Below are positions 4,213-8,747 of a DNA stretch of 64,000 bases, piece after piece (position 1 is the first letter of the stretch; each line of letters starts with the position of its first letter). Source of the stretch: Octopus vulgaris (Eukaryota). The stretch lies in assembly GCA_951406725.2 (NCBI GenBank), contig OX597819.1, forward strand, positions 20,150,001 to 20,214,000, in the 5' to 3' direction. The position numbers and the translations under genes were made by a program. Under the pieces are notes generated by a model. That model did no database searches and was not told where the DNA came from. It saw only the letters and a program-made list of their open reading frames with translations.

Positions 4213-4572
4213 AATAAATGAAAGAATGGAGTCGAACGAAGATGTTAACAAAATTCCTTTACTCTCGACACATGTTTCGAAGACATCTTTCCTGATGAGA
4301 AGATTACATAATGCACCCTTTATTCCTTCGGAGTGAAAATATGCTGTCTTCGAAACCTGTGTCGAGAGTAAAGGAATTTTGTTAACATCTTCGTTAGACT
4401 CCATTCTTTCATTTATTCATATACAACACACAAATTTCTACACATGAAGCCGGAGTTTCTACCCTTGACAGGTCGCTTCAACCGTGTTTTCTGACGTGAA
4501 TTTGGTACCCAGATTTCGCTTAAATGAATTTTTCATGCTGACGATAAACATAGGATAATTCATTCACCTACT

Positions 4573-4575
<3 letters not shown>
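4213..4575 (+). mobile_element. HHR-bearing fold-back insert in (TA)n (PLE pLTR / retrozyme-like)
   Basis: 73-bp inverted arms 4213-4285 and 4345-4417 (2 mismatches) around a hammerhead; (TA)n on both sides. Confidence 0.75.
4287..4368 (+). ncRNA. Type I minimal hammerhead ribozyme
   Basis: ctttc-CTGATGA-gaaga...tcttc-GAAAC-ctgt-GTC-gagag. The inverted copy shows the palindromic loop form GAAACATGTGTC. Confidence 0.75.
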
Positions 4576-4795: not shown

Positions 4796-4983
4796 GAACA
4801 GAACTTATCTGCAAGTCATTGTGGTTCAAATGAGAGGTGCACTCTGTCTCTGTGGTTTTCTCCTCAGCCACTTCAGATGCCATGATTGTGTGCAGGTTTA
4901 AGTACAGGAAGTGGTCAAACTCTGCATAAGGAGTAGACAAATATCATATATATATATATATATGTATATATATGTATATACTT

Positions 4984-5484
4984 TTAATTAATAAATATAA
5001 GGGTAGCAAAAAACTCTAGAAAAAATTATCCGCTACCAGCGGTCCAGCGAAAAAGAAAATATAGTCAAAGACTATATAATATGCATTCAAAAATATAAGG
5101 AATGGCCATAATAGGACATTCGACTCACTAGAAAGAGCAGCCAAACTCAAACCGCTAATAGTTATAATTCTGAAATTGAAAGAGAATTAAAAACTTTTAC
5201 CTCTTTCATCTCTGGACTATGCATAGTTTCGGCAAACTTTGGTAAACAAATTAATTAAATTAAATTAAATTTATTTACAACTGGCGTGCCTCGTCAGCAG
5301 AGAAGCCAAGGACGAGTATATATCCACGAGACGAGGGTAAGGAAGCCTCTAGTCTACCGCAATCGCGTGGTAAATATAAATTAAATCAGCAGTAAATATA
5401 AACTGCTGATTTAATTTCAAAATTAGCCAAAAAATCATTAATTAATAAATATAAGGGTAGCAAAAAATTCTAGAAAAAATTATC
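4984..5484 (-). mobile_element. 454-bp HHR-bearing monomer plus 47-bp terminal direct repeat, in (TA)n
   Basis: ttaattaataaatataagggtagcaaaaaa(c/t)tctagaaaaaattatc occurs at 4984-5030 and 5438-5484; internal HHR; TA tracts on both sides. Confidence 0.8.
5209..5303 (-). ncRNA. Canonical type I hammerhead ribozyme
   Basis: Minus strand: tctctg-CTGACGA-ggca...tgcc-GAAAC-tatgcata-GTC-cagaga. 6-bp stem I, extended stem II, palindromic stem III (ACTATGCATAGT), all core nucleotides intact. Confidence 0.9.
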
Positions 5485-5523
5485 ATGTATATATATGGGT
5501 ATATATATATATGTGTATATATT

Positions 5524-6122: not shown

Positions 6123-6710
6123 GGCGGCGAGCTGGCGGAAACGTTAGCATGCCGGGCGAAATGCTTACCGTCTGCCTCTACGTTCTGAGTTCAAATACTG
6201 CCGAAGTCCACTTTGCTTTTAATCCTTTCGGAGTCGATTAAATATGTACCAGTTACGCACTGGAGTCGATATAATCGACTTAGTCCATTTAACTGTCCTT
6301 GTTTGTCCCTTTTTTATTTAGCACCTTGTGGCTAGTAAAGAAATAGGTATTTCGTCTGCTGTTATGTCCTCATTTCAAAATCCGGCGAGGTAGACTTTGC
6401 ATTTCATCATTTAGGGGTCTATTAAATAAGTACCAGTTACGCACTGAGGTCGATATAATCGACTTAATCCGTTTGTCTGTCCTTATTTGTCTCCTCTATG
6501 TTTAGCCCCTTGTGGGTAATAAAGAATTAAGAAACGTTAGCACGCCGGGAGAAATGCTTAGCAGTATTTCGTGTCTTTGCGTTCTGAGTTCAAATCCTGC
6601 CTCTTATTCTTTTGGGGTCGATAAATTAAGTACCAGTTGCGTACTGGCGTCAATCTAATCGAGTACCCACCTCCCCCAAAATTTCAGGCTTTGTACCTAG
6701 TGTACAAAAC
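6123..6710 (+). mobile_element. Composite (three-body) tRNA-derived SINE, family A
   Basis: Head ggcggcgagctggc...gagttcaaat (A/B boxes). The central ctttcatcctttcggggtcgataaattaagtaccag domain (Meta-domain-like) recurs three times. Confidence 0.85.
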
Positions 6711-8184: not shown

Positions 8185-8191
<7 letters not shown>

Positions 8192-8404
8192 TCAATATAG
8201 GGTGGCAAAAAAAATTTTGTAGAATTCTTTTGCCTCCAGCGGCCTAGTGGGAAAAAATTAAATAGTCATAAACCATTTTTAAGTTCAACATTAACAATCA
8301 ATGAACGGCCATAATAGGCCATTCACCCACTAGAAATAACAGCCAAAAGCTTGGCTGTTATTTCTAGTGGGTGAATGGCCTATTATGGCCGTTCCTGATT
8401 GTTA

Positions 8405-8408
<4 letters not shown>
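8185..8408 (-). mobile_element. Truncated relative of the 4984 element ending in a 120-bp palindrome
   Basis: Homologous to about 4984-5145 (same left junction, ccagcgg, ggccataatagg, ctagaaa..cagccaaa). Palindrome 8288-8408 with 4-nt apex aagc; within (TA)n. Confidence 0.75.

Positions 8409-8747
<339 letters not shown>

What the first reader, a model, noticed from the sequence alone, without database searches (positions are those of the whole stretch)
4984..5484. 454-bp monomer with a fully intact hammerhead and terminal redundancy (retrozyme-like)
The minus-strand HHR at 5209-5303 has every core nucleotide, a 6-bp stem I, a long AU-rich stem II extension and a 12-nt palindromic stem III. 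Predicted cleavage is between 5215 and 5214. The insert is 1.1 monomers long (47-bp direct repeat), as expected from reverse transcription of a circular or multimeric RNA.
Basis: partly seen in the sequence, partly recalled or inferred. Interest (0 to 1): 0.75.

Follow-up and report, generated by a model that had tools for sequence, protein, structure and literature searches.

The report
Penelope-pasted hammerhead retrozyme copy
This is one of hundreds of scattered copies of a small protein-less jumping element that carries a predicted self-cutting RNA; the kind is already known in animals, and its insertion scars suggest it is cut at the predicted site, likely closed into a circle and pasted by Penelope-type enzymes.

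Summary
In detail: a complete type I hammerhead motif at 5303-5209 (minus strand) and a 47-bp direct repeat 454 bp apart. The repeat is neither a fixed terminal repeat nor a target-site duplication. It is where this copy happened to stop after one turn: 49 of 163 arms exceed one unit, by 3-353 bp. The usual unit is about 469 nt; 454 reflects a deletion seen only in this copy. With one ribozyme, this copy cannot release a monomer itself. The family (at least 197 ribozyme cores) inserts in (TA)n with Penelope-type scars: two fixed 3' ends about 100 nt apart, random 5' stops, head-to-head arms (35 of 36 pair one of each end). Six copies break exactly at the predicted cut, against 6 over five control positions (p about 0.008). 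One sister-family copy is fused to a truncated Penelope-like element. Verdict: new member of a known kind (animal non-LTR retrozyme). Cleavage, expression and circles are untested, and no parent element sharing its sequence was found. The scan has already reported sibling families with the same scars on other DNA of this genome.

The parts
4984..5484 (-). Whole insertion: 1.1 units of a non-coding repeat, single arm, flanked by (TA)-rich DNA
4984..5437 (-). One complete unit (454 nt here; family majority 469 nt)
5438..5484 (-). 47-bp start of a second turn; random 5' stop of the cDNA
   Evidence: 46 of 47 identical to 4984-5030; overlaps of 3-353 bp in 49 of 163 arms
5209..5303 (-). Type I hammerhead motif; predicted cut 5215|5214; palindromic stem III 5227-5216
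4984..4995 (-). 3' end A: fixed start of cDNA, 6-8 nt beyond a CCUUAUAUU motif that follows a hairpin
   Evidence: 63 of 163 arms start here
5078..5095 (-). 3' end B: second fixed start in other copies, beyond a second CCUUAUAUU motif; A-to-B stretch (about 100 nt) corresponds to the Penelope 'tail'
   Evidence: 71 of 163 arms start here
5350..5385 (.). Change seen only in this copy among 26 aligned monomers: about 25 bp lost between two TCTA words and a short rewrite that perfects the hairpin 5375-5419
   Evidence: alignment; no contig covers 5360-5382
4962..4974 (+). Possible 13-bp target-site duplication (second copy 5485-5497); low complexity and offset by 9 bp, so uncertain

Best explanation
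This is a dispersed copy of a non-coding hammerhead-bearing repeat (an animal non-LTR retrozyme) that was likely inserted by a Penelope-like reverse transcriptase/endonuclease, likely copying a self-cut and re-joined RNA circle of about 469 nt. Proposed cycle: a locus with two ribozymes in tandem is transcribed (inferred); the ribozymes cut out a unit (cut site supported by genomic breakpoints, not assayed); the unit is ligated (inferred); a Penelope-like endonuclease opens (TA)n DNA and the DNA ends prime copying at two fixed sites A and B (sites shown, enzyme inferred); copying runs round the template and stops at random (shown), giving single arms such as this one or head-to-head A+B pairs (shown).
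For: Family: 2315 candidates, 40 scored, full-length hits 84-89% identical; 197 exact core matches. In 99 loci: 134 of 163 arms start at A or B, 115 of those 134 next to (TA)n; of 36 head-to-head loci with two canonical ends, 35 are A+B, 1 B+B, 0 A+A (p 5e-10 against 0.5). These are the partial tandems, inverted copies and one-sided tail described for Penelope-like elements (PMC8557442, PMC3846280, passages). Clear 15-bp target-site duplications at L047 and L127. Unit junction is templated: identical in 45 of 61 crossings, same length in 58. Arms in one locus are closer than arms of different loci: tandem 4.3% vs 7.1% (28 of 30 pairs), inverted 3.7% vs 7.2% (64 of 69). Ribozyme: 5 substitutions in 660 letters on the CUGANGA core side against 4.9% elsewhere, N7 free to vary; stem II pair G-C 63 / A-U 21 / broken 3. 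Cut site: 6 breaks exactly at it (1 stop, 2 inversion joints, 3 deletions that begin there) against 161 read-throughs; five control positions gave 1, 1, 2, 0, 2 independent breaks (p 0.008); 0 of 46 crossings in loci not chosen by the core pattern have an indel near the cut. Nine arms cross the cut twice. L199: a sister-family arm joined directly to a 5'-truncated GIY-YIG element over a 3-nt microhomology.
Against: No cleavage assay, and no circle or transcript shown. No Penelope-like element sharing sequence with the unit was found in 30 GIY-YIG loci, 11 longer PLE regions or 30 loci of the L199 partner family, apart from neighbouring insertions and the chimera itself. The longest arm in 99 loci is 1.75 units; long arrays were not seen (one diverged sister has about 2.5 units). 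The breakpoint excess rests on 6 events and unequal control patterns. The chimera is one case, in a sister family about 84-86% identical, and a later deletion could make it. The 99 loci are not a random sample. Covarying pairs may each be one subfamily event, and inverted arms can be homogenised after insertion.
Confidence: 0.62

Rival explanations
1. Same element and same enzyme, but the template is linear: uncut read-through transcripts of 1.5-2 unit loci, or cut monomers bridged by the enzyme jumping from one RNA end to the next.
For: No arm over 1.75 units in 99 loci; Penelope-like elements form partial tandems without any known circle (PMC8557442, passages); L199 reads as a template jump; three deletions starting at the cut fit jumps as well as ligation of trimmed RNA.
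Against: Crossings of the cut are seamless (0 of 46 with an indel); copying of linear precursors can only shorten copies, yet several subfamilies keep copies longer than one unit; circles are shown for retrozymes of coral, mussel and axolotl (PMC7229834).
Confidence: 0.24
2. The copies are solo terminal repeats (5'-truncated ends) of an autonomous Penelope-like element whose coding part I did not reach.
For: Same insertion anatomy; most PLE copies are 5'-truncated; non-LTR retrozymes resemble PLE terminal repeats in frogs (bioRxiv 10.64898/2026.07.22.740005).
Against: Every arm long enough runs from the end of the unit straight back into its start (61 crossings); none of 99 loci continues into coding sequence.
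Confidence: 0.07
3. Mobilised by a different non-LTR retrotransposon (LINE type) that also favours (TA)n.
For: The enzyme is not shown; PMC7229834 names LINEs as candidates too.
Against: No poly(A) or simple tail; two fixed 3' ends with a one-sided tail and head-to-head arms are the PLE pattern, seen also in this genome's own PLE family.
Confidence: 0.05
4. Local tandem duplication or satellite-type spread at the DNA level; the hammerhead is a passenger.
For: AT-rich setting; inverted arms could arise by DNA repair.
Against: Dispersal over most chromosomes, fixed 3' ends, target-site duplications, conserved core with compensatory change, breaks at the cut.
Confidence: 0.02

Closest known systems
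Metazoan non-LTR retrozymes (Cervera and de la Pena 2020, PMC7229834; find passages and parts 3-4 of 6 read; supplement not seen)
   Same: Non-coding low-GC unit with one type I hammerhead, tandem-prone, in an animal genome that also holds PLEs; mollusc precedent in mussel (350-390 bp).
   Different: Unit longer (469 nt vs about 170-400); mostly dispersed partial and head-to-head copies, not arrays; long AU-rich stem II and 5-bp-capable palindromic stem III; circles not shown here.
Vertebrate non-LTR retrozymes as PLE derivatives (bioRxiv 10.64898/2026.07.22.740005; parts 1-3 of 5 read, supplements closed)
   Same: Proposed PLE mobilisation; monomers dispersed; unit length inside their range (51-972 bp).
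   Different: Their evidence is co-occurrence and terminal-repeat homology; here it is insertion anatomy and a chimera, and no homologous PLE end was found. By their two-ribozyme criterion this copy is not an active element.
Penelope-like elements, EN+ (Neptune type; PMC8557442, PMC3846280, PMC4209133; passages read)
   Same: Partial tandems, inverted 5'-truncated arm, tail on one end, (TA)n preference, short target-site duplications, type I hammerhead with palindromic helix III.
   Different: No ORF; tail about 100 nt instead of 30-40; full-size instead of minimal hammerhead.

Membership tests
Animal non-LTR retrozyme | Type I hammerhead with complete core in each unit | tested here: met
   (sequence and covariation; Rfam models do not match)
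Animal non-LTR retrozyme | Short non-coding unit, no LTR, low GC | tested here: met
   469-nt unit; no frame of 120 aa or more at the locus
Animal non-LTR retrozyme | Tandem copies with two ribozymes able to release a monomer | tested here: met
   Family level: 9 of 163 arms cross the cut twice, 3 hold two complete ribozymes. This copy has only one.
Animal non-LTR retrozyme | Self-cleavage at the predicted site | tested here: inconclusive
   Indirect only: 6 genomic breaks at the cut vs 6 over five control positions; no assay possible
Animal non-LTR retrozyme | Expressed as linear and circular monomer RNA | not testable with these tools
   No holder on record as RNA; only contigs
Penelope-like element (autonomous) | RT plus GIY-YIG ORF | tested here: not met
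   None in the unit; no arm in 99 loci continues into such a frame
PLE-mobilised non-autonomous element | Partial tandem, inverted arm, one-sided tail, microsatellite target | tested here: met
PLE-mobilised non-autonomous element | Terminal sequence shared with an autonomous PLE | tested here: inconclusive
   None found in 71 PLE loci examined out of thousands of candidates; one chimera (L199)
Plant LTR retrozyme | LTRs each with a type III hammerhead, 4-bp target-site duplication | tested here: not met
   Type I motif, outside the 47-bp repeat; repeat length variable

The most novel reading that the evidence does not exclude
The copies are a fossil record of the unproven retrozyme cycle: a Neptune-type Penelope enzyme primes both ends of one DNA break on a single ribozyme-cut, re-ligated RNA circle at two fixed sites, which would also explain the Penelope tail and inverted arm; rare copies record the cut itself and one records the enzyme switching from its own RNA to the parasite.
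Probability: 0.35. Interest if true: 0.65.

Novelty: new member of a known kind. Interest (0 to 1): 0.4.

Why it matters
Animal retrozymes are known, but which enzyme moves them and whether the circle is the template are stated as hypotheses in the papers read. This family offers countable genomic marks (two fixed priming sites, the A+B rule, breaks at the cut, a chimera with a PLE) and so names a candidate enzyme family and template for a direct test. A search for 'retrozyme' with 'cephalopod' listed only PMC8557442, so the library searched holds no description from this group; most subscription journals are not covered.

Tried and rejected
Rfam: no hammerhead match at either threshold; likely the long stem II, not evidence against the motif. 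RNA evidence: no RNA holder listed; contigs of eight runs (five guessed RNA, three of unknown kind) cover parts of the family but cannot show strand, ends or circles, and the wrap-around joints seen also exist in genomic copies. Parent search: the young 781-aa PLE family also ends in (TA)n but shares no sequence with the unit; L136, L015, L049, L118, L184 are neighbouring PLE insertions separated by (TA)n or other DNA, not fusions. 47 bp as target-site duplication or LTR: rejected. Classical LINE-1 twin priming (recalled model) rejected, because the two arms overlap in sequence. Folding z-score of this copy (-7.9) is inflated by its private hairpin; two other copies give -4.4 and -3.6 on 30 shuffles. 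Conservation of stem III and GAAA was not used as evidence, since most loci were chosen by that pattern. Ten of 109 element loci were dropped before counting: 4 duplicates, 5 from one local cluster, 1 poorly aligned. Empty allele: not testable. Look-up of earlier findings by sequence returned nothing.

Full report
Observation. The minus strand holds a complete type I hammerhead motif at 5303-5209 with the predicted cut at 5215|5214, and the 47-bp repeat at spacing 454 is real. A descriptor scan of both strands of the window found only this motif. Rfam does not recognise it. The hammerhead fold is 2.1 kcal/mol above the local minimum, and the 12-nt palindrome can pair with itself between two ribozymes at -15.9 kcal/mol, which fits the dimeric hammerhead model described in PMC4209133 (passages read). 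The genome is 2.8 Gb with TA microsatellites; 'octopus-like' is the wording of earlier scan notes, not something I established.

Family. A search of the own genome gave 2315 candidates, of which 40 were scored. A 22-nt core pattern has 197 exact matches, control 0; a looser ribozyme pattern has 256, control 1, including sister families. I mapped 109 loci (the 30 best hits and loci around the first 100 of the 197 pattern matches) and counted on 99 after dropping 4 duplicates, 5 members of one local cluster and 1 poor alignment. The sample is therefore not random. The majority unit is 469 nt; this copy lacks about 25 bp and has a rewritten hairpin, seen in no other of 26 aligned monomers.

Anatomy. 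Of 163 arms, 63 start at end A (window 4984-4991), 71 at end B (about 5085) and 29 elsewhere; 115 of the 134 canonical starts touch (TA)n. Both starts lie 6-9 nt beyond a CCUUAUAUU motif that follows a predicted hairpin. The other end is variable: 49 arms exceed one unit by 3-353 bp, and this copy's 47 bp is one such value. Locus types: head-to-head A+B 35, B+B 1, A+A 0, A+other 16, other+other 1; single B 28, single A 7, single other 6; complex 5. L047 and L127 have 15-bp target-site duplications. Partial tandems, an inverted 5'-truncated arm, a one-sided tail and microsatellite targets are the described marks of Penelope-like elements (PMC8557442; PMC3846280; passages only).

Template. The unit junction is identical in 45 of 61 crossings and of equal length in 58, so it is copied, not made anew. 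Overlapping arms within a locus differ less than arms of different loci (tandem 4.3% vs 7.1%, 28 of 30 pairs; inverted 3.7% vs 7.2%, 64 of 69; pairs are not all independent) and often share non-majority letters. This fits one RNA variant per insertion, though conversion between inverted arms could contribute. Nine arms cross the cut twice and three hold two complete ribozymes; these, not this copy, could release a monomer.

Is the ribozyme used? On the CUGANGA side, which the selecting pattern did not cover, the six core positions show 5 substitutions in 660 letters against 4.9% in the rest of the unit, while N7 varies freely. Stem II position 2 is G-C in 63, A-U in 21 and broken in 3 loci; one extension pair is A-U 66, G-C 11, G-U 6, other 8; each may be a single subfamily event. 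Probing for copies that match up to the cut and then diverge gave 12 hits: 3 unrelated, 3 point changes, 6 true breaks (L151 stop; L158, L159 inversion joints; L152, L154, L157 deletions of about 214, 18 and 136 bp beginning exactly at the cut), against 161 read-throughs. Five control positions gave 1, 1, 2, 0 and 2 independent breaks; conditional p = 0.008. One control pattern was narrower, so this is modest evidence. Deletions that begin at the cut are what a cut RNA with a trimmed 3' end would leave after ligation or a template jump. Otherwise the cut is crossed without a trace (0 of 46 with an indel).

Which enzyme? The genome holds many RT-GIY-YIG elements (781-aa frames) with a CX4CXXC linker, the mark given for Neptune/Nematis clades in PMC8557442. 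None examined shares sequence with the unit. At L199 a sister-family arm of 1.4 units is joined, in the same sense and over a 3-nt microhomology, to the last 65 codons and 3' end of a GIY-YIG element; the two outer ends are that element's 3' end and a B start, both in (TA)n. This reads as a switch of template by the PLE enzyme, but it is one case and a later deletion between neighbours would look the same. That PLE family (2346 candidates, 40 scored) shows two 3' ends about 35 nt apart and, by eye, a minimal hammerhead with the U3-A8 core variant described in PMC4209133.

Expression. No run on record as RNA holds the stretch; contigs are uninformative.

Comparison and verdict. It works like, and by the testable features is, an animal non-LTR retrozyme (PMC7229834, passages and parts 3-4 of 6 read), where circles were shown for other animals and PLE mobilisation was proposed; a 2026 preprint argues for PLE origin from homology in frogs (parts 1-3 of 5 read). 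Supplements of these papers were not seen and may list related families. Paper searches listed no cephalopod retrozyme and no report of the A+B rule. Earlier scan notes describe sibling families of 351-590 nt with the same scars; my first reading was stated before seeing them, one prompted wording on a single circle primed twice, and I tested the pattern on this family only. Novelty: new member of a known kind. Shown: motif, family, ends, anatomy. Inferred: cleavage in vivo (modest support), PLE enzyme (good support), circle (plausible, untested). Interest 0.4.

Noticed in passing
window 8185-8419: Diverged relative of the same element (72-80%), a head-to-head A+B pair between (TA)n tracts, truncated before the ribozyme.
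   Followed up: partly
window 4214-4575: Another (TA)n-flanked element with an inverted joint and hammerhead core words on the + strand at about 4286-4368; similar sequence at L146 500-740 has the core pieces in a different order, possibly the rearranged hammerhead of earlier scan notes. Seen by eye only.
   Followed up: no
L143, L144, L146 (about 1270-2820): The young 781-aa RT-GIY-YIG family has a 479-aa open frame upstream that overlaps the main frame; no convincing Pfam match.
   Followed up: partly
L199 3554-4851: Chimera of a sister retrozyme and a truncated PLE; candidate record of a template switch.
   Followed up: yes
L204-L233, 3' UTR: PLE family with a minimal hammerhead-like motif with U3-A8 core and two 3' ends about 35 nt apart; by eye.
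   Followed up: partly
L186 4215-5418: Diverged sister (71%) with about 2.5 units of about 480 nt whose units differ by about 8%.
   Followed up: partly
L008, L013, L018, L023: Four of 16 non-canonical arm starts cluster at unit position 159-163, perhaps a minor third priming site.
   Followed up: no
L098, L099: Local cluster of near-identical B-start copies of one subfamily within about 25 kb, probably segmental duplication.
   Followed up: no
window 6138-6662: Three related 180-200-bp repeats, likely a common short interspersed element.
   Followed up: no
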